From IMG/VR virus record IMGVR_UViG_3300023213_000432, positions 1 through 64,000 of that record: DNA of 64,000 nt. One strand, 5' to 3'. A program made the translations under genes and the position numbers. The notes below the pieces were generated by a model that did not search any database, was not told where the DNA came from, and worked only from the letters and a program-made list of their open reading frames with translations. This document shows, piece after piece, positions 13,702 to 61,954 of the stretch. Source of the stretch: a virus (taxonomy: Duplodnaviria > Caudoviricetes). Numbering within the stretch: the first letter of the stretch is position 1; each line of letters opens with the position of its first letter.

Positions 13702-13777
13702 GTCTCTGTATGCCGCTCGGCTTCTATCCGAGAGAAAGCTAACTGGAAACATATAGGTTCGAATCCTATCAGAGACA
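13702..13777 (+). tRNA. atypical tRNA-like RNA (possible D-armless Arg-TCT or pseudo-tRNA)
   Basis: perfect GTCTCTG/CAGAGAC acceptor and ATAGG-TTCGAAT-CCTAT T arm; only one internal hairpin CTCGG-CTTCTAT-CCGAG. Confidence 0.6.
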
Positions 13778-17410: not shown

Positions 17411-17784
17411 CTCTTGTTAGCTTAAGTTATTAAGTTAGCACGAGTAAGTGGGGAGAAACTACTTAACAAGTGTTTCTCATGCGATCTCATCAATCGCATA
17501 AGGCAAGGTATCATCGAGAATTGGTTGATGACCACGTAGATCGGTGATTACGAAAACAGGCTTGCCATTAGTAGAAGGGCGTTGGGTTAGGACACGGGCT
17601 CTTTTACGAGATAGTTATAAACTGAAATATTAAGAAAGAGCCCGGCAGAATTATAACCTGCGATCTCCAAAACTGCTAGTCTGGCGGGTTACCGCTTCCC
17701 TACGGGCTCAAAGCATTTTAACGTCCCTGCTAGAAATTGGCATCCTTCAAGACCTCCCCACTAAGATATATTGAAGGATGTCAA
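17411..17784 (+). ncRNA. candidate ~380-nt structured ncRNA, family unknown
   Basis: no ORF; six hairpins of 7-14 bp and a 9-bp long-range pairing 17447-55/17754-62; strand uncertain. Confidence 0.5.
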
Positions 17785-18374: not shown

Positions 18375-18594
18375 AAATAGAAAGCTATACGAGATTTTGA
18401 GAGACCAAAAAGTAGTCATTCAAAAAGCCGCACCATTGTCAAGTTCTAATTCTTTCTTTGTTTATATGTTCCTTACTGAAGGCGAGCTTCTGGCATTATC
18501 CAATGCTTTGAAAACTAATCCAACTCCGGTTGGTTCCAATGTTTTAAACTATTTGAATCATGCTATCACAGAAGCAAAAACAGATCTTAAATGA
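18358..18594 (+). CDS. hypothetical protein
   Basis: start re-called at MPIEL; ATGA overlap with ligase. Confidence 0.6.
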   Translation: MPIELKNRKLYEILRDQKVVIQKAAPLSSSNSFFVYMFLTEGELLALSNALKTNPTPVGSNVLNYLNHAITEAKTDLK

Positions 18595-19619
18595 CACGTT
18601 TCAAGCTTCTGACCAGAGACCAATTTAGAGAACAAGTTTTTGCCAGAGATAAATATCAGTGCGTGGTTTGTAAAGCGGCTGCGGTCGATTCCCACCATGT
18701 TCTCGAAAGACGTTTGTTTAGCGATGGTGGCTATTATCTTACCAATGGAGTTTCCGTCTGTGCCGAATGCCATCTTCAAGCAGAAGCTACTACCATTTCT
18801 TGTGATAAATTGAGAGAATTAGCCGGAATCAAAGAGTTCCCCATTCCAGATCATTTGGATCTCAACGGCAAATATGATAAATGGGGTAACGAAATTCTTC
18901 CCAATGGGATGCGGTTGAAGGGAGAGTTGTTCGAGGAAGTTCCGGTGCAGAAAATATTGGCACCAATGCTGTCATTATTTGGAGAGCATTTTAAATATCC
19001 ACGAACTTACCATTTTCCATGGAGCCACGGACTGATCAATGATGATCGGATGCTGGAAGATTTATCATCTTTTCAGGGAGAGCAAGTAGTTTCTACCGTT
19101 AAAATGGACGGAGAGAATACTACTTTTTATTCTGATCATCTTCACGCCCGCTCTTTGGACTACAAGCCTCATCCGTCCCGAGACTGGATCAAATCACTAC
19201 ATGGGAGAATCGCTCACGAGATCCCGAAAGGTTATAGAGTCTGCGGAGAAAATGTTTTCGCATCACATTCCATTTATTATCAGCACTTGGACGATTACTT
19301 TTTCGTTTTCTCAGTTTGGAACGATAAGAACGTGTGTCAATCGTGGGATGAAACGGTAGAGTGGGCAGAATTGCTTGGACTGAAAACCGTCCCAATTCTC
19401 TATGATGGAATATGGGATGAGACCAAAATCAAAGGATTGTATCAGGAAGTATTTAACGGGGATCCGTGCGAAGGATATGTGATCAGGGTGAGACGGGCAT
19501 TTCACTATCGGGAGTTCAAAAATGTTGTTGGTAAGTTTGTAAGAAAGGGACATGTTAGTCCCGACAACGATCACTGGATGCATCAGAAAGTTATTCCAAA
19601 CAAATTGAGAACTTCATGA
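18591..19619 (+). CDS. HNH-domain-fused ATP-dependent RNA ligase
   Basis: N-term CVVC..DSHHV..N..CAECH; ligase KYPRT, motif I KMDGEN, GEN, EGYV, GKFVR. Confidence 0.85.
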   Translation: MTRFKLLTRDQFREQVFARDKYQCVVCKAAAVDSHHVLERRLFSDGGYYLTNGVSVCAECHLQAEATTISCDKLRELAGIKEFPIPDHLDLNGKYDKWGNEILPNGMRLKGELFEEVPVQKILAPMLSLFGEHFKYPRTYHFPWSHGLINDDRMLEDLSSFQGEQVVSTVKMDGENTTFYSDHLHARSLDYKPHPSRDWIKSLHGRIAHEIPKGYRVCGENVFASHSIYYQHLDDYFFVFSVWNDKNVCQSWDETVEWAELLGLKTVPILYDGIWDETKIKGLYQEVFNGDPCEGYVIRVRRAFHYREFKNVVGKFVRKGHVSPDNDHWMHQKVIPNKLRTS

Positions 19620-23278: not shown

Positions 23279-23636
23279 GGGCCCAAACAGGTTTCGACGG
23301 GGAAATGTAGTTAATATTGCGTACAAGAGCGTTCGAACTCTTTTAATCGAACAACGTTATAAATGCTAACGATAATAATGCATTTGTTCAGATGCCCTTG
23401 GCAGCCTGAGCACGGCTTAACAATAAGAAGTTCTGGTAATCGTTAAGTTGTCAACCCACAAGAACTGACAGCGCGGAAAGACGAGCAAACAACAGTTTCT
23501 CGTGTTCTGTCAAAACACGATGTTGGAGGACAAAACGGAAATCCGTTCGTCCTTCGTTTCTGAACGTAAATCAGATATGTACGTAGATGGTATTATTGAA
23601 ATTTTTCCGGACGCCGTTCAATTCGGCATGGGTCCA
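23279..23636 (+). ncRNA. ssrA: tmRNA
   Basis: 5' GGGCCCA..GGTTTCGACGGGG, 3' T arm GCCG-TTCAATT-CGGC and TGGGTCCA; tag frame 23365-23409 ANDNNAFVQMPLAA*. Confidence 0.95.
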
Positions 23637-24665
23637 CTATGACGCTTTCTTGGCAATATTGCATTTATTATGATTGGCAACTTCTTTACAAAATTCAATC
23701 ACTTGTTCATCAGTAAAAGTATTGCGAGCATAATTAGCCATAAGTGATACGAATCTAACATTACCAGCAACATATCCTTTGGAATTGTCAATACGATCTA
23801 AGCTTGCGTTGTATGGGCTGAGTTTAATTTGCCCACCTTCCCCGCTGTTCTTTGGAAGTATCATCGTTTGATTAGTAAAGGGACACATACCTAATTGTAA
23901 GTCCCATAAGTTTTTCAAATAATATTCGGAAACTGGTATGCCATACTTTTCTCTTTTTTCTTTTGCTCGGTTTCGTAAAATTTTAGAAAACCATTTAAAC
24001 GGCGAATAGACGTCCGATTTTGAATGTTGTATTATGACAGAGAGATCTTGATCATGCATTGTAGGATTCAACGATAATGCGATCCATTCCATTTTGATAG
24101 TTGCGTCATATTGATGAGCATTAGCTACGATCTGACAAAAGTCAATCAATTCTTCATCAGAAAATATATTTCTGGCATAATTTGCCATCAGCGATATAAA
24201 CCTAACATTTTCTACAATATATCCCACTTCATTGTTAATTCTATCAAGGCTACCGTTGTTTGGTTTGTGATAATCCCAACCACAAGATCCTCTTGGTAAG
24301 TTCAAAAAATTGCCCGTAAATGGACAAGTGCCTGTTTGAGTATGCCACAATTCTTTTAAAAAATTTTCAGATATATTGCTTAGTCCAATCCGTGTAAACT
24401 TTTTTTTAGTTTTGGAGTAACTCTGTCTGGTTCTAATTCGTCGTGTGAACCACCTAAATGGAGATAGTTCGTCCATTTTCTTTACGGGCAAATTTTCAAT
24501 ATGACCTACATGTTTTCTTGGTATTTCTCTATTGCCATAAACCATGGAACATGAAAGAGAACAAAAGAATCTTGTATGTCCTTTTCTCATACGACGATCG
24601 TATTCCTTCTTCTCTTTAACGAAAAGCTTCTTGCACTCAAAGCATTCTAATTCAACTGTTTTCAT
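23637..24665 (-). CDS. tandem-domain HNH-like (SLDRID-type) endonuclease
   Basis: two copies of CPFT...SLDRI.N..GY...NVRF.SLMANYARN; N-terminal CxxC..CS..C. Confidence 0.8.
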   Translation of the reverse strand: MKTVELECFECKKLFVKEKKEYDRRMRKGHTRFFCSLSCSMVYGNREIPRKHVGHIENLPVKKMDELSPFRWFTRRIRTRQSYSKTKKKFTRIGLSNISENFLKELWHTQTGTCPFTGNFLNLPRGSCGWDYHKPNNGSLDRINNEVGYIVENVRFISLMANYARNIFSDEELIDFCQIVANAHQYDATIKMEWIALSLNPTMHDQDLSVIIQHSKSDVYSPFKWFSKILRNRAKEKREKYGIPVSEYYLKNLWDLQLGMCPFTNQTMILPKNSGEGGQIKLSPYNASLDRIDNSKGYVAGNVRFVSLMANYARNTFTDEQVIEFCKEVANHNKCNIAKKAS

Positions 24666-34439: not shown

Positions 34440-34560
34440 TTATTGGTGGAAGTTAGTGGAGGACGTGAAAGTGAATGCCGAAGTTGGCCAGGTTTGGTAT
34501 AATGAAAGTAGAGATTGGAAGGTTAGGATCACTGCTATCAAAAATAACATAGTTAGTGCC
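34440..34560 (+). pseudogene. out-of-frame 5' module of modular protein C
   Basis: WWKLVED..EVGQVWYNESRDWKVRI, preceded by TGA TGA and one base out of frame with 34556 ORF. Confidence 0.5.
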
Positions 34561-37049: not shown

Positions 37050-37364
37050 ATGGCTACGCGTAAGTGGAGCGAGTTGAAGGACAGGATGGCGCCTGAGCGC
37101 AGGGCTCGGGTTGATGCAGCCGTGCGTCAAGAGCTGCACGCAATGAAGATCAAAGTTTCGGAAAAATTAAAACAGAAAAGTAAAGACATGATTCTGAAAC
37201 CTTGGATGTATTGGCTGCTTGCGGGCATGTATGCTGTTTTTATGGGGGCAAGTATCTATAAACAGTTTTGGCTTCCTACCATTATAGGTATCATTGGGAT
37301 TATAGTAATGGCGATTTGTGCCATAGATGCCAAAAGATATTGGAAAGAAAACAACCATGATTAA
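37050..37364 (+). CDS. membrane protein with XRE-antitoxin-like N-terminal segment
   Basis: MATRKWSELKDRMAPERRARVDAAVRQEL then two TM helices; AGGAG RBS. Confidence 0.55.
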   Translation: MATRKWSELKDRMAPERRARVDAAVRQELHAMKIKVSEKLKQKSKDMILKPWMYWLLAGMYAVFMGASIYKQFWLPTIIGIIGIIVMAICAIDAKRYWKENNHD

Positions 37365-38085: not shown

Positions 38086-38103
38086 TTCCCATCGCCTAAC
38101 GGC
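38086..38103 (+). repeat. dispersed 18-bp motif
   Basis: exact intergenic copy, 21 nt before ATG 38125. Confidence 0.95.
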
Positions 38104-39050: not shown

Positions 39051-39182
39051 TGTTCCGGGTCGCAGTATTCGGTTATCAATAAGCCAGAGATCGTGGGTGC
39101 GAATCCCACTACCCGTAAAACGGGTATCGTCTAGAAGCCTAGGACACTGACAAATCTCCGACCACGATTTTTATCCGGGACA
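39051..39182 (+). ncRNA. YrlA-like Y RNA with circularly permuted tRNA module
   Basis: terminal stem TGTTCCGGGT-C/TTATCCGGGACA; T arm 39093-109, loop-closed acceptor 39110-126, D arm 39129-145. Confidence 0.85.
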
Positions 39183-39208
39183 CAATTTTGTGTTAGCACT
39201 AAAACTAA

Positions 39209-39276
39209 CTTTGGGTCGAAGTTAATTCGGTTATCACTTTTGCGATTACCTCCGAATTACGCTTACTTATCCAAAG
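39209..39276 (+). ncRNA. short Y-RNA-like gene 2
   Basis: CTTTGGGT-C-GA...GGTTATCA...ACTTATCCAAAG, T run after. Confidence 0.75.
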
Positions 39277-39299
39277 CTTTTTTAAAAAAGGAAAGACAT

Positions 39300-41024
39300 A
39301 TGTCATATTCATCTCATATCAGTAAAAATCCCTCCCAAACTGAAATGGCGCGCCCAGATCAAGTCCAGAACTCGGCAGGCGGATATGTTTTTCAGGTTGA
39401 TAAATGGCAACGTTTAGATCGTTTTCTCATTCTTGGGAACGAAGGCGGCACCTATTACGCTACGGAAAAACAACTTACCTTTGAGAATGTCAAGTGCATT
39501 TCAGAATGTCTCAAAGAGGATGCTTCTCGCACCATTCATCGGATCGTGGAGATTTCGTATGCGGGGCGAGCACCTAAAAATGATCCTGCCATTTTCGCTT
39601 TGGCATTGGCAGCCTCCCATCAGGATCTCAAAGTCCGACAAGAAGCGTTATCTTATCTTCCCCAAGTATGTCGAATTGGAACTCATTTGTTCCATTTTGC
39701 TAGGGACATCGATAAACTTCGAAAGTGGTCGCGAGGTTTGAGAACCGCAGTTTCCAAATGGTATCTTCGCCGTTCCCCGGAGAGCCTTGCTCTTCAAGCT
39801 ATTAAATATCAACAGCGAGATGGATGGAGCCATCGAGATTTGCTTCGTTTGGCTCGTCCTAATCCCAAGGATTGCAAGAAGCCGGTGGATACAGCTACGC
39901 ATGCCAAGTTTGTTCAGCAGTTTGGCTCTGCCTTCCGTTGGATTGTGGATAGGGATCATCTTGGAGAACGTAAAGTCGGAGGAGAATTGAAAACCAAATC
40001 TTTTCCGATTCGGGAGTATCAAGGATACCAGAAAACAGATCTTCCGGCTTTGATTCAAGCCTTTGATCAACTTCATGCTTCTAAAGATTTAAAAGAAGTT
40101 ATCACTCTCATTCGGGAATTTAAAATGCCCCACGAAGCTGTTCCTAATGAATGGAAGGATAAACCGGAAGTTTGGGAAGCTTTACTAGAAGGAATGGGAA
40201 TTACCGCCATCATTCGTAATTTGGGAAAAATGACCAATGTTGGATTGTTAAAACCCTTGGGAAGTAATACCACTCAGGTGGTGGAAAAATTGACTAATGA
40301 AAAAGTCCTGAAAGAAGGACGCGTTCATCCCATTGCTATTCTTTTCGCTCAAAAGGTGTATGCTCAGGGACATGGAGACAAAGGAAAGCTGTCTTGGACG
40401 ACTGTTAAGCCGATCGTAGATGCTTTGGATGATGCCTTTTATTTTGCTTTCAAGACGATTCGTCCTACTGGTAAAAATCATTTGTTAGCGTTGGATGTTA
40501 GTGGATCCATGGGATGTAGCTATATTGCAGGTACTAGTTTGTCAGCTATGGAAGCTTCGGCAGCTATGGCTATGATCACTATGCGAGCTGAGCCCAATTA
40601 TCATTTGGTTGGATTTTCTAGTGCTAGTGGTGGATATGGTGGTAAGTGGGGTGGCGGACAGTCCAAGATGATAGAGATTGACATTACTAAGAAGACTCGT
40701 CTTAACACAGTGATTGAAACTGTTTCTAAAATTCCGATGGGCGGAACAGATTGCGCTTTGCCTATGCTGTATGCTATGGATAATAAGTTGGACGTAGATA
40801 CTTTTGCTATATATACTGATAGCGAGACCTGGCATGGAGACATTCATCCTTACCAAGCTTTGAAGCAGTATCGAGAAAAATCAGGACGAAATGCTAAACT
40901 GGTTGTGGTAGGAATGACGGCAACGGAATTTTCCATTGCTGCGCCTGATGATAATGGAATGCTTGATGTCGTGGGCTTTGATACTGCGGCGCCTGACATC
41001 ATGGCAAATTTTTCTATGGGATGA
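39300..41024 (+). CDS. rsr: Ro60 / TROVE-domain RNA-binding protein (Rsr)
   Basis: NSAGGYVF..RFL.LG.EGGTYY, KYQQRDGWSHRDLLRL, vWA MIDAS LDVSGSM, TDCALPM, TDSET; start re-called behind AAAGGA. Confidence 0.95.
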   Translation: MSYSSHISKNPSQTEMARPDQVQNSAGGYVFQVDKWQRLDRFLILGNEGGTYYATEKQLTFENVKCISECLKEDASRTIHRIVEISYAGRAPKNDPAIFALALAASHQDLKVRQEALSYLPQVCRIGTHLFHFARDIDKLRKWSRGLRTAVSKWYLRRSPESLALQAIKYQQRDGWSHRDLLRLARPNPKDCKKPVDTATHAKFVQQFGSAFRWIVDRDHLGERKVGGELKTKSFPIREYQGYQKTDLPALIQAFDQLHASKDLKEVITLIREFKMPHEAVPNEWKDKPEVWEALLEGMGITAIIRNLGKMTNVGLLKPLGSNTTQVVEKLTNEKVLKEGRVHPIAILFAQKVYAQGHGDKGKLSWTTVKPIVDALDDAFYFAFKTIRPTGKNHLLALDVSGSMGCSYIAGTSLSAMEASAAMAMITMRAEPNYHLVGFSSASGGYGGKWGGGQSKMIEIDITKKTRLNTVIETVSKIPMGGTDCALPMLYAMDNKLDVDTFAIYTDSETWHGDIHPYQALKQYREKSGRNAKLVVVGMTATEFSIAAPDDNGMLDVVGFDTAAPDIMANFSMG

Positions 41025-41046
41025 AAGGATTTAGTTCTCATTTTTC

Positions 41047-41110
41047 GCTTTGGGTCGAAGCAATTTGGTTATCAATGGACAACACCGAATTGCAACCACT
41101 TATCCAAAGC
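41047..41110 (+). ncRNA. short Y-RNA-like gene 3
   Basis: GCTTTGGGT-C-GA...GGTTATCA...CACTTATCCAAAGC. Confidence 0.75.
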
Positions 41111-41124
41111 ATCTATTTTTTTTG

Positions 41125-41194
41125 GTTTCGGGTCGAATTTACTCGGTTATCAATGTTATTGAATCAATCCCGAGTAGAAACACTTATCTGAAAC
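41125..41194 (+). ncRNA. short Y-RNA-like gene 4
   Basis: GTTTCGGGT-C-GA...GGTTATCA...CACTTATCTGAAAC. Confidence 0.75.
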
Positions 41195-42762: not shown

Positions 42763-43145
42763 TTAACGCAAGAGTTTTGATTCAAGTAGATCAAGAAAAG
42801 CGATTGTTCGGCAGAGTGGTCGGGCAAAGTTTGATTGGCAATCCATTGATGGAACCCCAAACTGCCAAGTTATATTTGATGGTGGAATTGGATAATCAAG
42901 CCCAAGAAGAAAGTACTTCGACAGAACAACGTCCTATGGGAGAATCTATTACCAAGCATAAGCACGTTTGGATGTGCGAAACGGACGCCCAAGCATTAGT
43001 TAATGAAGGATTGATAATTAATTCAAGTGACAACAAGATTAGAGATCGGTCATTTGGAAATTTTCGAGGAACCAAGGTGAATATCAATGAGGAAGTTCAA
43101 CCGGGAACTTTCAAAACGTTGGATGGAAAGATTCACAAACTATGA
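42759..43145 (+). CDS. hypothetical protein
   Basis: ATGA-coupled. Confidence 0.65.
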   Translation: MINARVLIQVDQEKRLFGRVVGQSLIGNPLMEPQTAKLYLMVELDNQAQEESTSTEQRPMGESITKHKHVWMCETDAQALVNEGLIINSSDNKIRDRSFGNFRGTKVNINEEVQPGTFKTLDGKIHKL

Positions 43146-43531
43146 ACATAGTCTTTACTGACGACGAAATTCCGCGCCATGATTTGGCAGAGGAAATTTT
43201 AGGATCTCATCATACATTGTTTCATGCCTATAATGCGAATGAAGCCATTGCAATTATAGAAATCTTGACTAAAAGTGGAGAGGTGATTGGTCTTTATATG
43301 ACAGATCATGACATGCCATATTCTAAAAATGGCTCCGAATTAGCATCTGACATCATTAATGGCATATCCAACGTGGAAAAATTTATTGCTCAAGTGATTG
43401 TGCATTCCTTTAATCCCGATGGAGCTAAAAATATCGAAGCTAAATTTCGAGCAGCAAATATTCCGGTAACACGATGGATGTTCTCGGAGGACATGTTAAA
43501 ACAATTACAAAAGGAGTTAGAGCCACAATGA
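43142..43531 (+). CDS. receiver domain, cyclic-phosphate-processing type
   Basis: IVFTDDE, TDHDM..NGSE, VIVHSFNPDG. Confidence 0.7.
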   Translation: MNIVFTDDEIPRHDLAEEILGSHHTLFHAYNANEAIAIIEILTKSGEVIGLYMTDHDMPYSKNGSELASDIINGISNVEKFIAQVIVHSFNPDGAKNIEAKFRAANIPVTRWMFSEDMLKQLQKELEPQ

Positions 43532-44380: not shown

Positions 44381-45421
44381 TCATTGAACATTGCCCGATC
44401 GAGCCTTATCAGGGTTCATCTTCTCATAATTTGGGAAGATGGAGAGGCTCTCGCCAATATCTCTGTCTATTGACGACTGACCAAACATTTGTCTTTGCGC
44501 TATATTAAAGGCAGCATTAACATCTGCGTGATCTGTGTGTTCGCATTGTTGGCAAGCAAAACGCTTGCCGTCCCTTATTCCAAGAGCGCCGCATCTACTA
44601 CATTGTTGGGAAGTATAATGAGGTTCTACCTTGAAGATCGGCACTCCATAACGAAGCGCTTTATATATCAAAAAACTTTCTAATTGATAAAAGCTCCATG
44701 AATTTAACATTCCATTGAGCCTTCTACCTTTGGACTTCTGTTTTCGGATACCCTTCAAGTCTTCCAAAACTAATCCAACTTTATGTTCTACACAATATTG
44801 GATAACCACTTTAGCAATCTTATGATTGAGATCTCTCATAATGTTAGCTTCTCGTTTACTAAGTTGTTTCTTAACAAAACGATAAGCTCCTTGTTTTTGT
44901 GCTGATTTGCGAATGTTTCGATATTTGTTGCGAAGATGCGAACACTTTTTGCCTAGCTTTAGTATCTTTCCCGTGGATGGATTAGCTAACACCGCTATGT
45001 GGGAGGTAGCATTTCTATCTAAACCAACATAACCTGTTGGAGAAAAGACTATGGCTTCGCTGACTTCTACGGAAACATACGCGTATTCTTTGGATAATTC
45101 TACTTGTTTAATCTTCTTGAAGGAAGGCAAGTGGTGAATATCCAAATACAAACTCAAAGGAGTTATTTTGAGAATCTTATTTTGGAGTTTGAGGGATTGG
45201 TTGGGGACTATTAGATTAACATTTCTGATGGTGCGACACCTCTTATTTCTTCCATATTTACGAAGGATCTGATTGGATATAGCGGACTTAAGACCGATGT
45301 GAGAAACTTCTTTGGAGGAAAGCTTGTTGCGATTATGAATAGCAAACTCCGCTATTTTATGAGCTTTGACAAGTTCATCTGATAGATCGAATTGATGGCG
45401 GAGTTTGTAGGTTAGGATCAT
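44381..45421 (-). CDS. tnpB: TnpB RNA-guided endonuclease
   Basis: RuvC D (VGLDRN), E (VLEDL), D (HADVNAA); CSRC..CQQC; TAATG overlap with tnpA. Confidence 0.92.
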   Translation of the reverse strand: MILTYKLRHQFDLSDELVKAHKIAEFAIHNRNKLSSKEVSHIGLKSAISNQILRKYGRNKRCRTIRNVNLIVPNQSLKLQNKILKITPLSLYLDIHHLPSFKKIKQVELSKEYAYVSVEVSEAIVFSPTGYVGLDRNATSHIAVLANPSTGKILKLGKKCSHLRNKYRNIRKSAQKQGAYRFVKKQLSKREANIMRDLNHKIAKVVIQYCVEHKVGLVLEDLKGIRKQKSKGRRLNGMLNSWSFYQLESFLIYKALRYGVPIFKVEPHYTSQQCSRCGALGIRDGKRFACQQCEHTDHADVNAAFNIAQRQMFGQSSIDRDIGESLSIFPNYEKMNPDKARSGNVQ

Positions 45422-45816
45422 TAGACGTTCTTTTGATTCTCTATATATTGTTTTACGGTTGCTTCTGATATACAACCTACACTTTCAGCAAAATAACTTC
45501 TTGTCCATAATGTGGGCAGCTTGCTTTTGAGATGTGGAAATTCAGTTCGTAAGATACGGCTGCTCTTGCCCTTGAGTTGCTGAACTACAAAATGTGGAGC
45601 ATGCACCGGACTACAGTGAATAAAAACATGTACATGATCTGGCATTATTTCCATTGTTTCAATGGTGCAATCAATTTCTTTAACTATTTCTGGTAAAAGT
45701 TGTCGAAGGCGTGTTTCCACCTCATCCACTAAAACTTTTCTACGATACTTTGGACACCAGATCAAATGATAGTTTATATTGAAAATTACTTTGTTGCTGT
45801 GTTTCCATCTCGACAT
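45421..45816 (-). CDS. tnpA: IS200/IS605 Y1 transposase
   Basis: YHLIWCPKYRR, HUH (DHVH), catalytic Y in YIENQ. Confidence 0.95.
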   Translation of the reverse strand: MSRWKHSNKVIFNINYHLIWCPKYRRKVLVDEVETRLRQLLPEIVKEIDCTIETMEIMPDHVHVFIHCSPVHAPHFVVQQLKGKSSRILRTEFPHLKSKLPTLWTRSYFAESVGCISEATVKQYIENQKNV

Positions 45817-59212: not shown

Positions 59213-60226
59213 TTATTCAAGTATTGCACGGGCTTTACCGGCTAATATTCTTCGTATGTACCGCTCACCAACACCGAATTGTTTGGCGATTTCCTTAACT
59301 GGTTTTTGGTTCCCCAATACTCTAATTGCAATAATATCTTCGTTTGAAAGTTTCACTACTCTCCCACCAAGTCCATGATGTTTAGGCGGGTTAACTGTCA
59401 TTGCAATGTCACGTTTCCTTTTTAGAAATATGATAGCGCCGTCATAGAGCCAGTGAATAATACGATTGAGTTCGGTTTGATCGCCATATCTCAATCCAAA
59501 TGTTTTAAGTAATTTACCATACTTTTTATCTCTAATAATCCTGTGTTTAGATTGTATGGAGCATCTTGTTGCGAAGACTCTTTCAATTGTTTTCAGCATG
59601 TTCTGAGTGCCAATTAAAGAGAGTCTTAAAGTATTATACCTATTATCTTGCCAAAAAGATCCGTCTCCATCGATAAATCCTCGAATGAAATGATGGACAA
59701 GTGGATGTTTAATTAATCGTTTAGGGAATTTGAGTGTAAGGCTTTTTTTTGGTGTGATATTGAAGCGAGCCATTAAATCATCAAACATTTTCTTGGATGT
59801 TATTTGGAACCCATATCCCCAACTATTTTTGGCTTTACAATACCATTTGTGCAATTTATGTTTGGATTTGAATAATTTTTTGATCAATTTCAAATAAGCA
59901 ATATCCTTATGTCCTAAAGCAATGCTTATTATTCCGTTGGGTTTTGATTTACTCTTGTGTAGGCATCCATCAGCGGCTATAAATCCCGCCAAATACATTG
60001 AGATTTCTGTGTCTGTGGAAAATAATTCATCATTGACACATTTTCTTGGTTTCTCTTGTTTGCCAGCCCCGATTCGCTTAAGCCTATGTCTATTCATATA
60101 ATTGATGATAGTAGTTTTGTCTATGTCAAGATGATTGCTAAGTTTATCTACACTTTTAAATTCGTTGTATTTTTCTCGAAGAAACTCTTTGGTTAGATAA
60201 TCTGCATATTTTAAAGGGGCTGCCAT
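59213..60226 (-). CDS. double-motif LAGLIDADG homing endonuclease
   Basis: YLAGFIAADG and FIRGFIDGDG, terminal HTH-like segments; start re-called at MAAPL. Confidence 0.9.
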   Translation of the reverse strand: MAAPLKYADYLTKEFLREKYNEFKSVDKLSNHLDIDKTTIINYMNRHRLKRIGAGKQEKPRKCVNDELFSTDTEISMYLAGFIAADGCLHKSKSKPNGIISIALGHKDIAYLKLIKKLFKSKHKLHKWYCKAKNSWGYGFQITSKKMFDDLMARFNITPKKSLTLKFPKRLIKHPLVHHFIRGFIDGDGSFWQDNRYNTLRLSLIGTQNMLKTIERVFATRCSIQSKHRIIRDKKYGKLLKTFGLRYGDQTELNRIIHWLYDGAIIFLKRKRDIAMTVNPPKHHGLGGRVVKLSNEDIIAIRVLGNQKPVKEIAKQFGVGERYIRRILAGKARAILE

Positions 60227-60280
60227 TTTTTGATCTCGTTTGCTCATCAATAGATATATCACTTGGAAAGGAAGTGTGAA

Positions 60281-61954
60281 ATGAAGAAATTGGTTTTGAT
60301 ATTAATGACTGTAGTGATGATGGGATGCGGAAATGATTCTGTTAAGGGAGTAAGACACAGGAACTATGATCTTAGGAATGCGGACGTCATTCCGGGGGAG
60401 ATTGTGATCGATCTGAAGGATAACGTTTCAGACAGTGATGTTGCGGAATTATCCAAGATAGCTGGCGTGAGGTTGCATGCAGACAATCCAACTGCTGAAA
60501 AATTCAAGATTGAGCACGGGCACGTGGATCCTAATTTGGAACAAGAAGTATTGGATCGATTAGCAAGTGATCCAAGAGTGGAACATTCAGAACCTGCTTA
60601 TCTTGCTCATGCTTTATTTATCCCCAATGATCCGATGTATAAGGAACAATGGGGTATCACTCGTATTGGAAGTGAGAGTGCTTGGAACATGACTTGCGGC
60701 AGAGGTTCCACTATAGCAATGTTAGATACGGGCATTGCAACTCATTTAAGCGACTTTGCAGAAACCAAGTTTCTTACTGGATATAACTTTGCCGATAATA
60801 ACGAAGATACTAATGATCGACAGAGTCATGGATCTCATACGGCTGCAACCGTAGCAGAGAGCACTTCCAACAATATTGGTGGTGCCGGTATTGCTTACTG
60901 TGCAACTATTCTTCCTGTCAAAGTTCTTGGGGATAATGGATCTGGATCTCTCTATAATGTTGCTGAAGGGATTAGATGGGCCGCCGATCAACGAGCCAAC
61001 ATTATTAACATGTCTCTTGGGGCTCATGTCAAAAGTGATATTATTGAAGATGCGGTAAATTACGCACTTGACCACGGATCTGTTGTGGTGGCAAGTAATG
61101 GAAATAGTGGTGGCAGTATTGGCTGGCCTGCCGCCTATCCGGGCGTAATAGCAGTGTCAGCAATCGATAATCGTGATCATATCGCTGATTTTTCTTCTCG
61201 TGGACCCGAGACTGTTATTAGTGGGCCTGGAGTTGATATTCTTCAAATCACTGTTGGGGAAGGTGGTAAAGGAGAACAGTATGTCAAGTATTCAGGAACT
61301 TCAATGAGTGCGCCCGGAATTTCTGGTGTAGGAGCAATGATTGTCAGTATGGGTGTCAATAAACCCGATGCAGTCAAAGCTATCTTGCAATCTTCTGCTG
61401 AGGATATTGGTCTTGATTCCGATGAACAGGGTGCCGGTATGGTTCGGGCAGATCGCGCAGTTAGATCGATTATTTTTACTCATACTCTTCTTCGATTGTT
61501 GGGATTGGCAGGACTTCTTTTCTTCTTCCGTAAGCAAATCAATACCGTTCTTGTGAAGAGTAAATTGTCAATCATTGGTATCGTTCTAGGAGGATTTGGT
61601 TTGGTACCTCTTTTCTTCTTGCACGTAATGCCTCATACAGGAATTGTTCGGGTATTAGTAGAGATGTTGGCTCGTCCAATTGGAGAGATGAATATTCCAC
61701 TAGGTTTCTTGATCAGCTACCTACCGTTAGCCAATTGTATTCCTGCAACCTTTGCCTCGCTGCTTTTCCTTAATAGTAGGTTGAAGAACTTTGCTGGTGG
61801 TTTAGCATTGGGCAGCGCTGCATTGTGTGCTCAAATGGCTTATAGCAATGACATGAATTTCGTTTTTGGAAGTTTAGTTATGCGAATGTTTATGGTTGTT
61901 AGTGTGGTGGTTTGTGGTTACTTCGTGAAGACGATTTTCGCCCAAAAACTCTGA
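60281..61954 (+). CDS. S8 subtilase, lipoprotein leader and C-terminal multi-TM region
   Basis: triad LDTG, HGSH, GTSMS; oxyanion ASNGN; MMGC lipobox. Confidence 0.92.
   Translation: MKKLVLILMTVVMMGCGNDSVKGVRHRNYDLRNADVIPGEIVIDLKDNVSDSDVAELSKIAGVRLHADNPTAEKFKIEHGHVDPNLEQEVLDRLASDPRVEHSEPAYLAHALFIPNDPMYKEQWGITRIGSESAWNMTCGRGSTIAMLDTGIATHLSDFAETKFLTGYNFADNNEDTNDRQSHGSHTAATVAESTSNNIGGAGIAYCATILPVKVLGDNGSGSLYNVAEGIRWAADQRANIINMSLGAHVKSDIIEDAVNYALDHGSVVVASNGNSGGSIGWPAAYPGVIAVSAIDNRDHIADFSSRGPETVISGPGVDILQITVGEGGKGEQYVKYSGTSMSAPGISGVGAMIVSMGVNKPDAVKAILQSSAEDIGLDSDEQGAGMVRADRAVRSIIFTHTLLRLLGLAGLLFFFRKQINTVLVKSKLSIIGIVLGGFGLVPLFFLHVMPHTGIVRVLVEMLARPIGEMNIPLGFLISYLPLANCIPATFASLLFLNSRLKNFAGGLALGSAALCAQMAYSNDMNFVFGSLVMRMFMVVSVVVCGYFVKTIFAQKL

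What the first reader, a model, noticed from the sequence alone, without database searches (positions are those of the whole stretch)
39051..41194. Phage Ro60 gene bracketed by an array of four Y-RNA-like genes
Seen: a full-length TROVE+vWA Ro60 (39300-41024) has two RNA genes upstream (39051-182, 39209-276) and two downstream (41047-110, 41125-194). All four share a terminal stem with 5' GGGT-C-G and 3' TTATC, i.e. a helix with a bulged C, and an internal GGTTATCA followed later by a pairing CCGA. Their outer stems differ in sequence but keep pairing. Established: Ro60 binds the bulged-C helix of Y RNAs, and bacterial rsr loci encode Y RNAs nearby; Ro60/Y RNA has been reported in some phages. 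Inference: a phage-specific Ro60 RNP system with one long tRNA-mimic and three minimal 64-70 nt RNAs, possibly scaffolding host nucleases such as PNPase or countering RNA-targeting defence. The conserved GGTTATCA element is unexplained.
Basis: partly seen in the sequence, partly recalled or inferred. Interest (0 to 1): 0.9.

Follow-up and report, generated by a model that had tools for sequence, protein, structure and literature searches.

The report
Phage Ro60 gene with four Y RNAs
A large uncultivated phage carries a textbook Ro60 RNA-binding protein gene flanked by four small partner RNAs (Y RNAs); the finding is real, but it is a further example of a known phage and bacterial system.

Summary
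A full-length Ro60 gene (TROVE + Ro60-vWA, 39300-41024) has two Y RNA-like genes upstream (39052-39181, 39208-39277) and two downstream (41047-41110, 41125-41194), all on its strand.

- **Specificity.** A covariance model built mainly from other phages finds exactly these four in the 198-kb record.
- **Relatives.** In 73 related IMG/VR Ro60 loci plus the window, a refined model finds 139 elements, all on the Ro60 strand, 0-5 per locus.
- **Fold.** Stems are 92% paired against 36-50% when partners are slid, and 18 of 20 pairs show compensatory changes.
- **Y1.** It carries a permuted tRNA-like module (T arm, closed acceptor-like stem, D arm), as in YrlA. It does not reach Rfam's YrlA model.
- **Y2-Y4.** These are minimal 64-70 nt forms. 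Y3 and Y4 score just below threshold on Rfam's nematode stem-bulge (Y RNA homologue) family.
- **GGTTATCA.** This "unexplained" element is the UUAYC motif. It is nearly invariant in 127 phage elements and already described as YUAY in YrlA and UUAUC in animal Y/sbRNAs.

Phage Ro60 with Y RNAs has been published (Chen 2014; phiLo 2025). This scan has also noted comparable phage Ro60-like RNA arrays on other DNA. Only the 2+2 bracketing is unusual. Function in infection is inferred, not shown.

The parts
39052..39181 (+). Y1: long (130 nt) YrlA-type Y RNA. It has a terminal bulged-C stem, a weak upper stem, UUAUCA, and a permuted tRNA-like module at 39072-39155. The module comprises a T arm GUGGG-UGCGAAU-CCCAC, a closed 5-bp acceptor-like hairpin, and a D arm GUCU-AGAAGCCUA-GGAC.
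   Evidence: R1 26.3 bits and R2 36.6 bits, full length. R3, the tRNA-like module model built from 20 other phage elements, scores 44.6 bits with all helices formed. There is no Rfam YrlA hit at E<=10.
39208..39277 (+). Y2: minimal 70-nt Y RNA ending 23 nt before the Ro60 start codon and followed by a U6 run. It carries GUCGAAG (the GNCGAAN0-1G motif) and UUAUCA.
   Evidence: R1 37.4 bits, R2 48.3 bits. Fold z-score -3.9. It is 81% identical to Y3.
39300..41024 (+). Ro60 gene (574 aa): TROVE HEAT-repeat ring plus Ro60-type vWA domain with an intact DVSGS MIDAS motif.
   Evidence: Pfam PF05731 and PF25045. PHROG 850 RNA-binding protein. PDB 1yvp E 1e-123 and 2nvo E 1e-116. Translation.
41047..41110 (+). 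Y3: minimal 64-nt Y RNA starting 23 nt after the Ro60 stop codon. A U8 run lies 6 nt downstream.
   Evidence: R1 53.7 bits, R2 60.7 bits. Rfam sbRNA family RF01656 34.8 bits against a threshold of 38. Fold z-score -4.4.
41125..41194 (+). Y4: minimal 70-nt Y RNA with a 9-bp upper stem and a small hairpin in the loop after UUAUCA.
   Evidence: R1 76.4 bits (it was a seed sequence of R1), R2 68.6 bits. Rfam RF01656 28.3 bits. Fold z-score -3.1.
43142..43531 (+). Context only: small protein with a cREC (cyclic-phosphate-processing receiver) domain, 2 kb downstream. Any link to the Ro60 module is an inference.
   Evidence: Pfam PF20274 E 1.9e-6, 28.9 bits against a cut-off of 27. It is not conserved next to Ro60 in related loci.
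18591..19619 (+). Context only: RNA ligase (Rnl2-type domain at residues 165-316), 20 kb upstream. It shows the phage carries RNA-repair functions.
   Evidence: Pfam PF09414 E 5e-32.

Best explanation
The locus is a canonical Ro60 / Y RNA ribonucleoprotein module carried by a large uncultivated phage.

The four RNAs are most likely cut out of a rightward multi-gene transcript at the A/U-rich spacers between them. Each ends in a stem closed by its own 5' and 3' ends. In that stem a conserved helix (GGG-Y, unpaired C, then a G-U wobble and an R-U pair) is the docking site for the outer rim of the Ro60 ring, as in animal and bacterial Y RNAs. One helical turn (about 9 bp) above it lies the nearly invariant UUAYC. 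I infer that this is a second contact with Ro60 or with a shared partner.

Y1 additionally displays a permuted tRNA-like elbow, as YrlA does, and probably recruits a tRNA-recognising factor. Y2-Y4 have no such module. They would act as simple lids or gates on Ro60, or as tethers to a host exonuclease through their short single-stranded loops.

Shown here: gene identity, RNA family, fold, conservation and linkage. Inferred: processing, binding and any role in infection (RNA quality control or repair alongside the phage's RNA ligase, cREC protein, tRNAs and tmRNA).
For: Ro60 identity.

Specificity: there are exactly four copies in 198 kb, and all flank Ro60.

Linkage:
- Model R2 gives 139 hits in 74 sources, every one on the Ro60 strand and none inside the gene.
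- No neighbouring protein is conserved with Ro60 across the related loci, so the RNAs are its only constant companions.

Fold:
- 91.7% of cells are paired against 36-50% when partners are slid.
- 824 cells carry double changes against 288 in shuffles.
- 18 of 20 pairs show compensatory changes. Stems were also recovered without any model.

Conserved core across 127 distinct elements:
- G11 127/127
- unpaired C10 118/127
- U23 and U24 127/127
- C27 126/127
- G11-U wobble 117/127

Match to known Y RNA features:
- GNCGAAN0-1G and YUAY in YrlA (PMC4201824).
- UUAUC in sbRNA and vertebrate Y RNAs (PMC4726728).
- Y3 and Y4 score 34.8 and 28.3 bits on the sbRNA family.
- Relatives' long forms hit Rfam YrlA at 30-43 bits.

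Y1 tRNA-like module:
- R3 scores 44.6 bits over its full length.
- The T-loop variant UGC co-occurs with a D loop lacking GG in 3 of 3 elements. UUC goes with GG in all others. This is what a tRNA-like elbow contact predicts.

Flanks are A/U-rich: 69% A+T against 52% background, with T4 runs in 25% against 4%.

Precedent: M. smegmatis YrlA and YrlB are processed from one precursor upstream of rsr (PMC4201824). Phage phiLo Ro60 binds two upstream Y-like RNAs and forms a complex with host PNPase (PMC12135203).
Against: - There are no expression or binding data for this phage.
- Y1 does not reach Rfam YrlA at any listed E-value. Its upper stem is weak (4 bp, a mismatch, then 2 bp), and the minimum-energy fold prefers a competing helix.
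- Y3 and Y4 stay below the sbRNA gathering score.
- No sigma-70-like promoter or clear terminator brackets the RNAs, so discrete RNAs depend on assumed processing.
- Alignments made by the covariance model lean towards its structure.
- The held 198 kb contains no PNPase, RtcB or other obvious effector, so the partner would have to be a host protein.
Confidence: 0.85

Rival explanations
1. Y2 and Y3, and perhaps all four, are not free RNAs. They would be structured parts of the Ro60 mRNA's 5' and 3' untranslated regions. Ro60 would bind them to regulate its own synthesis, or they would cap the message against exonucleases.
For: Y2 ends 23 nt before the start codon and Y3 begins 23 nt after the stop codon. 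In many related loci the last upstream element lies only 21-41 nt from the Ro60 start. No separate promoters or terminators are predicted.
Against: Related loci carry up to five elements, some 1-2.7 kb from the gene. Many carry tRNA-like modules that make no sense as UTR caps. Characterised bacterial Y RNAs are co-transcribed with rsr and then processed to stable RNAs (PMC4201824). The two readings are not mutually exclusive.
Confidence: 0.1
2. The minimal RNAs are decoys. They would soak up a host factor, such as a host Ro60/Rsr, PNPase or an RNA-targeting defence nuclease, rather than serving the phage's own Ro60.
For: They lack any effector module, and three near-redundant copies suggest that dosage matters. 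A phage Ro60-like gene was reported as a counter to a defence system (bioRxiv 10.1101/2024.10.10.617714). phiLo Ro60 was proposed to hijack host PNPase (PMC12135203).
Against: The elements are strictly linked to a phage-encoded Ro60 in every locus examined, which argues that the phage protein is their partner. There is no evidence about the host or its defences.
Confidence: 0.04
3. The four elements are ordinary repeated hairpins (terminators or intergenic repeats) whose likeness to Y RNAs is coincidental.
For: U runs follow Y2 and Y3. The simple terminator scan flags the start of Y3.
Against: There are four copies only, all at Ro60. The same family sits beside Ro60 in distant phages, with covarying stems and an invariant core. 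It also resembles curated Y RNA families.
Confidence: 0.01

Closest known systems
Bacterial and phage Rsr (Ro60) with YrlA / YrlB Y RNAs (Chen et al. 2014, PMC4201824; Rfam RF02553)
   Same: - The RNAs are encoded within a few hundred nt of Ro60 on the same strand.
- There is a GNCGAAN0-1G-type motif in the 5' strand (exact in Y2 and Y3) and YUAY right after the stem.
- One RNA carries a permuted tRNA-like domain (T arm, closed acceptor-like stem, D arm), accompanied by shorter Y RNAs that lack it, as YrlB accompanies YrlA.
   Different: - Y1 is too divergent for the Rfam model. It has a T loop of UGC instead of UUC, a D loop without GG, and a 5-bp rather than 7-bp acceptor-like stem.
- There are four RNAs, three of them only 64-70 nt.
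- The RNAs lie on both sides of the gene. This was seen in no other of the 73 related IMG/VR loci, and only weakly in Gordonia phage Sixama.
Vertebrate Y RNAs and nematode stem-bulge RNAs (Rfam RF01656; PMC4726728)
   Same: - The layout matches: a terminal stem with an unpaired C followed by a G-U wobble, an asymmetric internal loop, an upper stem of about 9 bp, then UUAUC opening the loop.
- Human Y4 and the sbRNA consensus also read GGUUAUCA at that spot (the sbRNA consensus is shown; the hY4 sequence is from my own memory).
- The protein is as close to Xenopus Ro60 as to Deinococcus Rsr.
   Different: - Scores are below the family's gathering threshold (34.8 and 28.3 against 38).
- There are two rather than three pairs after the unpaired C.
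- The genes are bacterial-type with no Pol III signals.
- Whether the likeness reflects common descent or convergence on Ro60's binding surface is open.
Thermus phage phiLo Ro60 with Yrl1 and Yrl2 (PMC12135203)
   Same: It is a phage-encoded Ro60 with adjacent Y-like RNAs containing CGAA. Binding and a ternary complex with host PNPase were shown in vitro.
   Different: - phiLo's protein is a very distant TROVE protein (E 0.19 to this one).
- It has two RNAs, both upstream.
- The window's protein is canonical.
Phage 'Ro60-like' (DUF2828-vWA type) proteins with arrays of handle RNAs, noted earlier in this scan (for example e1-272486, e1-5378700)
   Same: The theme is the same: a ring protein gene beside an array of 4-9 small RNAs that share one handle and differ in body, one or more being tRNA mimics.
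   Different: As their summaries describe them, those concern distant Ro60-like proteins and a different handle. Here both the protein and the handle are the canonical Ro60 / Y RNA ones. I did not re-examine those loci.

Membership tests
Ro60 / Rsr protein | TROVE (HEAT-repeat ring) domain followed by a Ro60-type vWA domain, full length | tested here: met
   PF05731 E 9e-47 and PF25045 E 1e-64. Residues 12-573 align to 6-535 of Xenopus Ro60.
Ro60 / Rsr protein | MIDAS motif (DxSxS) in the vWA domain | tested here: met
   DVSGS is read in the translation and aligned to DVSAS of 1yvp.
Y RNA (general) | 5' and 3' ends pair into a terminal stem containing a conserved helix with a single unpaired C | tested here: met
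   All four elements show it. Lower helix is 88.9% paired, with 9 of 11 pairs showing double changes. C10 is unpaired and conserved in 118/127.
Y RNA (general) | Encoded next to a Ro60 gene on the same strand (the bacterial and phage rule) | tested here: met
   Distances are 119, 23, 23 and 101 nt from the gene, all on the + strand. All 139 family hits lie on the Ro60 strand.
Y RNA (general) | Exists as a discrete small RNA bound by Ro60 | not testable with these tools
   No sequencing run was listed. No RNA-protein prediction tool was available.
YrlA (Rfam RF02553) | Reaches the curated gathering score (69 bits) | tested here: not met
   No YrlA hit for Y1 at E<=10, either in a 2.5-kb or in a 251-nt search. 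Long forms in related phages reach only 30-43 bits.
YrlA (Rfam RF02553) | Permuted tRNA-like domain in the order T arm, closed acceptor-like stem, D arm | tested here: met
   Model R3, built from 20 elements of other phages, matches 39072-39155 over its full length at 44.6 bits with no non-standard pair.
YrlA (Rfam RF02553) | GNCGAAN0-1G near the 5' end and YUAY after the stem (PMC4201824) | tested here: inconclusive
   YUAY (UUAU) is present in all four. GUCGAAG is exact in Y2 and Y3. Y4 reads GUCGAAUU and Y1 reads GUCGCAG.
Nematode sbRNA (Rfam RF01656) | Reaches the curated gathering score (38 bits) | tested here: not met
   Y3 scores 34.8 bits (E 9e-5) and Y4 28.3 bits (E 5e-3). Y1 and Y2 are not listed.

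The most novel reading that the evidence does not exclude
The UUAYC element, placed one helical turn above the bulged-C helix, is a universal and homologous part of the Ro60-binding core of Y RNAs, from phages to animals. It would not be a eukaryote-specific DNA-replication motif. On this reading the 64-70 nt phage RNAs represent the minimal complete Y RNA. Phages carrying self-contained Ro60 + Y RNA cassettes (no other gene is conserved with them) would be plausible vehicles for the patchy spread of the system among bacteria.
Probability: 0.35. Interest if true: 0.55.

Novelty: new member of a known kind. Interest (0 to 1): 0.38.

Why it matters
**For annotation.** Y RNA genes are missing from phage records. 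In Mycobacterium phage PurduePete two "hypothetical protein" calls lie over Y RNA-like elements. A simple 68-position model recovers 1-5 per Ro60 locus.

**For biology.** The locus offers very small natural Ro60 ligands (64 nt) next to a protein about as close to Xenopus Ro60 as to Deinococcus Rsr. That makes it a convenient pair for structural work on what the invariant UUAYC does. It also adds a case where a phage combines Ro60/Y RNAs with an RNA ligase, a cREC protein, tRNAs and a tmRNA. That combination fits the view that large phages carry their own RNA maintenance kit.

It does not reveal a new kind of system.

Tried and rejected
- **Rfam at gathering thresholds.** It gave nothing at the locus. 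At permissive thresholds neither YrlA nor the vertebrate Y_RNA model was listed for the window's elements.
- **MAFFT seed alignments.** Those of the four copies and of ten short elements were out of register in the 3' half. I replaced them with a seed of five elements of equal geometry and a hand-written structure.
- **D-arm finder.** My automatic finder mis-assigned four elements, including Y1. For these I read the D arm from the sequences and from the R3 alignment.
- **Near-identity search.** A megablast of phage GenBank records with 4.5 kb of the locus found no match.
- **Promoter and terminator scan.** It found nothing above shuffled expectation that brackets the RNAs.
- **Neighbouring proteins.**
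  - The ORFs at 34556, 38125, 38739, 41222, 41737 and 42759 have no significant Pfam or PHROG family.
  - The ORFs at 37050 and 43952 have no PHROG family.
  - None of 19 window proteins tested (17 from 34.5-45.5 kb, plus Ro60 excluded and the ligase at 18591 included) has a homologue beside Ro60 in the related loci.
- **Family searches in the held 198 kb.** RtcB, RNase PH (PNPase), large terminase and tail sheath were not found. The record is about 46% complete, so this says little.
- **Reading as chance hairpins or terminators.** Considered and rejected; see the rival explanations.
- **One review** (PMC10870794) could not be fetched.
Full report
**What is there.** The window is the first 64 kb of a 198,652-bp IMG/VR virus record estimated to be about 46% complete. 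At 39300-41024 (+) lies a 574-codon gene preceded by AAGGAAAG.
- Its product matches Pfam TROVE (E 9e-47) and the Ro60-specific vWA domain (E 1e-64), and PHROG 850 "RNA-binding protein".
- It aligns from residue 12 to 573 with Xenopus Ro60 (1yvp, E 1e-123). It matches human Ro60 (9nen) and Deinococcus Rsr (2nvo) almost as well.
- The MIDAS motif reads DVSGS.
- The one structurally studied phage Ro60, from Thermus phage phiLo, is only a marginal match (E 0.19). So this protein is a canonical Ro60, not a distant look-alike.

**The four RNAs.** The sequence shows four elements on the + strand: Y1 39052-39181, Y2 39208-39277, Y3 41047-41110 and Y4 41125-41194.
- Each begins NNNNNGGGUCG and ends UUAUC(C/U)NNNNN, with the outer five bases complementary.
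- This gives a nine-pair stem, an unpaired C, then a G-U and an A-U pair.
- After a one-base / five-to-six-base internal loop comes an upper stem, nine pairs in Y3 and Y4. Its last two G-C pairs run straight into UUAUCA.
- The short RNAs fold this way as their minimum-energy structure, with z-scores of -3.1 to -4.4 against shuffles.
- Y1's minimum-energy fold differs in the middle (z -2.3).
- Y2 and Y3, the two copies that directly bracket the gene at 23 nt on each side, are the closest pair at 81% identity. This suggests a local duplication.

**More than chance.**
- The composite motif occurs only at these four sites in the 198 kb.
- I built covariance model R1 from five short elements of equal geometry, four of them from other phages. 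It finds exactly the four elements in the window and in the whole record, and nothing else at E up to 10.

**Comparative evidence.** A protein-guided scan of IMG/VR returned 79 loci encoding relatives of this Ro60 at 36-54% identity.
- Over the window plus 73 of these loci, R1 gave 80 hits. R2, rebuilt from those hits, gave 139 hits. Every hit is on the Ro60 strand and none lies inside the gene.
- On the 127 distinct sequences, 91.7% of pair cells are standard pairs. The figure is 36-50% when the 3' partners are slid by 1-3 columns and 61.5% in column shuffles.
- 18 of 20 pairs show changes on both sides, and 824 cells carry double changes against 288 expected (the smaller set is).
- These alignments were fitted to the model and so lean towards it. 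However, a model-free script had already recovered perfectly paired but different upper-stem sequences in many loci.

**The conserved core, and the "unexplained" GGTTATCA.** Column counts over the 127 elements show the following:

| Position | Conservation |
|---|---|
| G6 | 123/127 |
| G7 | 105/127 |
| G8 | 114/127 |
| Position 9 with its partner | C-G in 71, U-A in 45 (covarying) |
| C10 (unpaired) | 118/127 |
| G11 | 127/127, paired as a G-U wobble in 117 |
| U23, U24 | 127/127 |
| A25 | 122/127 |
| Position 26 | U 86, C 39 |
| C27 | 126/127 |

UUAYC is thus as conserved as the Ro60-binding helix itself.

It is not new:
- Chen et al. 2014 describe a conserved YUAY that opens the loop after the stem in YrlA, and GNCGAAN0-1G in the 5' strand (PMC4201824, sections read).
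- Kowalski and Krude describe a UUAUC loop motif shared by nematode stem-bulge RNAs and vertebrate Y RNAs (PMC4726728).

Consistently, Rfam's nematode sbRNA family RF01656 is the best Rfam match of Y3 (34.8 bits, E 9e-5) and Y4 (28.3 bits). Its consensus aligns on the bulged helix, GGUUAUCA and the 3' CUUGAC strand, just under the 38-bit threshold. Short elements in two related phages score alike. What the motif does is still unknown. I found no paper that explains it for Ro60 binding.

**Y1 as a tRNA mimic.** Y1's 85-nt insert reads, in order:
1. a T arm (GUGGG / UGCGAAU / CCCAC);
2. a hairpin closing an acceptor-like stem (ACCCG-UAAAA-CGGGU);
3. a D arm (GUCU / AGAAGCCUA / GGAC).

Rfam's YrlA model does not list it even in a 251-nt search. 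The tRNA model gives only 15.7 bits on the T arm.

Long elements in related phages do hit YrlA, at 30-43 bits and below the 69-bit threshold. Their inserts align into T arm, 7-bp closed stem, two bases, D arm, with 13 of 16 pairs showing compensatory changes. Model R3, built from 20 of these and none from the window, matches Y1's insert over its full length at 44.6 bits with every pair standard. The next best hit in the window is a bare T arm of a tRNA-like gene. So Y1 belongs to the YrlA type by architecture, but not by the curated Rfam score.

A further detail supports a real tRNA-like elbow. The three elements with T loop UGC (window Y1, L006, L051) are the only ones whose D loop lacks GG; each has AG instead. 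All elements with UUC and a D arm have GG (the D arms of four elements were read by eye because my script mis-assigned them). This agrees with a separate first-reader note (e1-5401740).

**How usual is an array of four?** Counts per locus with R2:

| Elements per locus | Loci |
|---|---|
| 0 | 14 (8 of them with less than 300 bp of upstream flank held) |
| 1 | 15 |
| 2 | 26 |
| 3 | 9 |
| 4 | 5 |
| 5 | 5 |

- Typical arrays mix one or two long tRNA-like forms with 62-82 nt minimal forms.
- All other loci have their elements entirely upstream or entirely downstream. The window is the only 2+2 case.
- Cultured phages show the same unannotated arrays:
  - Mycobacterium phage PurduePete has three upstream, lying under the "hypothetical protein" CDS 231 and 232.
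  - Gordonia phage Cashline has two upstream.
  - Gordonia phage Sixama has two weak upstream and one downstream among its tRNAs.
- 355 phage GenBank records encode a homologue, usually annotated "Ro-like RNA binding protein".
- Four Y RNAs is therefore within the normal range. Only the bracketing is unusual.

**Context.**
- No protein gene is conserved with Ro60 across the related loci. The cassette of Ro60 plus Y RNAs is self-contained.
- 24 of 50 loci have tRNA or tmRNA genes within 3 kb. Here the nearest are a tmRNA at 23279-23639 and tRNA-like genes further upstream.
- The window also encodes an RNA ligase (PF09414) and, 2 kb downstream of Ro60, a small cREC-domain protein. Iyer et al. 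propose that domain processes 2',3'-cyclic phosphate ends, and they list ROT/TROVE proteins among jumbo-phage RNA-repair functions (PMC7824862).
- The held 198 kb has no RtcB or RNase PH/PNPase domain.
- Element flanks are A/U-rich across the family. No sigma-70-like promoter or clear terminator separates them here.
- The nearest upstream copy of an 18-nt motif that recurs 14 times on the + strand lies at 38086.
- Taken together, this points to co-transcription and processing, as shown for M. smegmatis YrlA/YrlB (PMC4201824). That is an inference.

**Mechanism, with confidence.**
- *Shown:* the gene is Ro60; the four elements belong to one RNA family with a covarying two-helix fold and an invariant core; the family is strictly linked to Ro60 genes; one member carries a YrlA-type tRNA-like module.
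- *From established knowledge:* Ro60 binds the bulged helix on its outer surface, and Y RNAs gate its cavity and tether it to exonucleases such as PNPase (PMC4201824; PMC4726728; PMC12135203).
- *Inferred:*
  - All four bind the phage Ro60.
  - UUAYC is a second contact.
  - Y1 recruits a tRNA-recognising partner, while Y2-Y4 act as lids or simple tethers.
  - The particle serves RNA surveillance or repair during infection.

I put 0.85 on "Ro60-bound Y RNAs". I put far less, about 0.3, on any specific downstream role.

**Novelty.** Phage Ro60 with Y RNAs has been in the literature since 2014 (22 phages in PMC4201824) and was characterised biochemically in 2025 (PMC12135203). This scan has also repeatedly noted phage Ro60-like genes with RNA arrays on other DNA. 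This is a new member of a known kind.

The points of modest interest are:
- the very small natural ligands;
- the near-invariance of UUAYC across phage elements, matching the animal motif;
- the altered T-loop/D-loop pair in Y1;
- the 2+2 arrangement.

Noticed in passing
window 708-50854 (14 sites, e.g. 38086-38103): The 18-nt motif TTCCCATCGCCTAACGGC occurs 14 times with up to 2 mismatches, all on the + strand, against 0 expected. The two copies whose flanks I read (31725 and 38086) lie in intergenic positions shortly before genes. It may be a phage promoter or a processing signal. The copy at 38086 is the nearest one upstream of the Ro60 locus.
   Followed up: partly
window 18591-19619 (+): A 342-aa protein has an Rnl2-type RNA ligase domain at residues 165-316 (PF09414, E 5e-32). 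The 164-residue N-terminal part has no Pfam hit.
   Followed up: partly
window 43142-43531 (+): A small protein matches the cREC (cyclic-phosphate-processing receiver) domain just above threshold and PHROG 1479. It lies 2 kb downstream of the Ro60 cassette.
   Followed up: no
window 44381-45475 (-): A TnpB / Cas12f-like protein (Cas12f1-like TNB domain, E 2e-23). The tRNA-module model R3 gives a weak hit (8.2 bits, E 0.24) just beside it at 45552-45624 on the same strand. This may be part of its guide RNA, or chance.
   Followed up: no
window 23279-23639 (+); 13702-13777 (+); 17637-17709 (-): A phage-encoded tmRNA with tag ANDNNAFVQMPLAA. A tRNA-like gene has a 4-nt stand-in for the D arm (Rfam 39.9 bits). 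ARAGORN also calls a tRNA with a four-base anticodon on the minus strand.
   Followed up: no
L088 2583-2930 (Mycobacterium phage PurduePete, OR613483.1 about 129494-129841): Three Y RNA-like elements upstream of the annotated Ro-like gene lie under two annotated "hypothetical protein" genes, 231 and 232. Those gene calls are probably spurious.
   Followed up: partly
L006 5097-5219; L051 2060-2199; window 39092-39141: In three phages the tRNA-like module has T loop UGC instead of UUC together with a D loop that has AG instead of GG. All other modules keep UUC with GG. This looks like a compensated change in the elbow contact.
   Followed up: partly
L064 1049-1492; L018 6391-6754; L057 1009-1434: tmRNA genes, one of them of the permuted type, lie within 2 kb of the Ro60 / Y RNA cassette in three related phages.
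   Followed up: no
window 59213-61954: A LAGLIDADG-type homing endonuclease gene on the minus strand abuts a subtilase (Peptidase_S8) gene on the plus strand.
   Followed up: no
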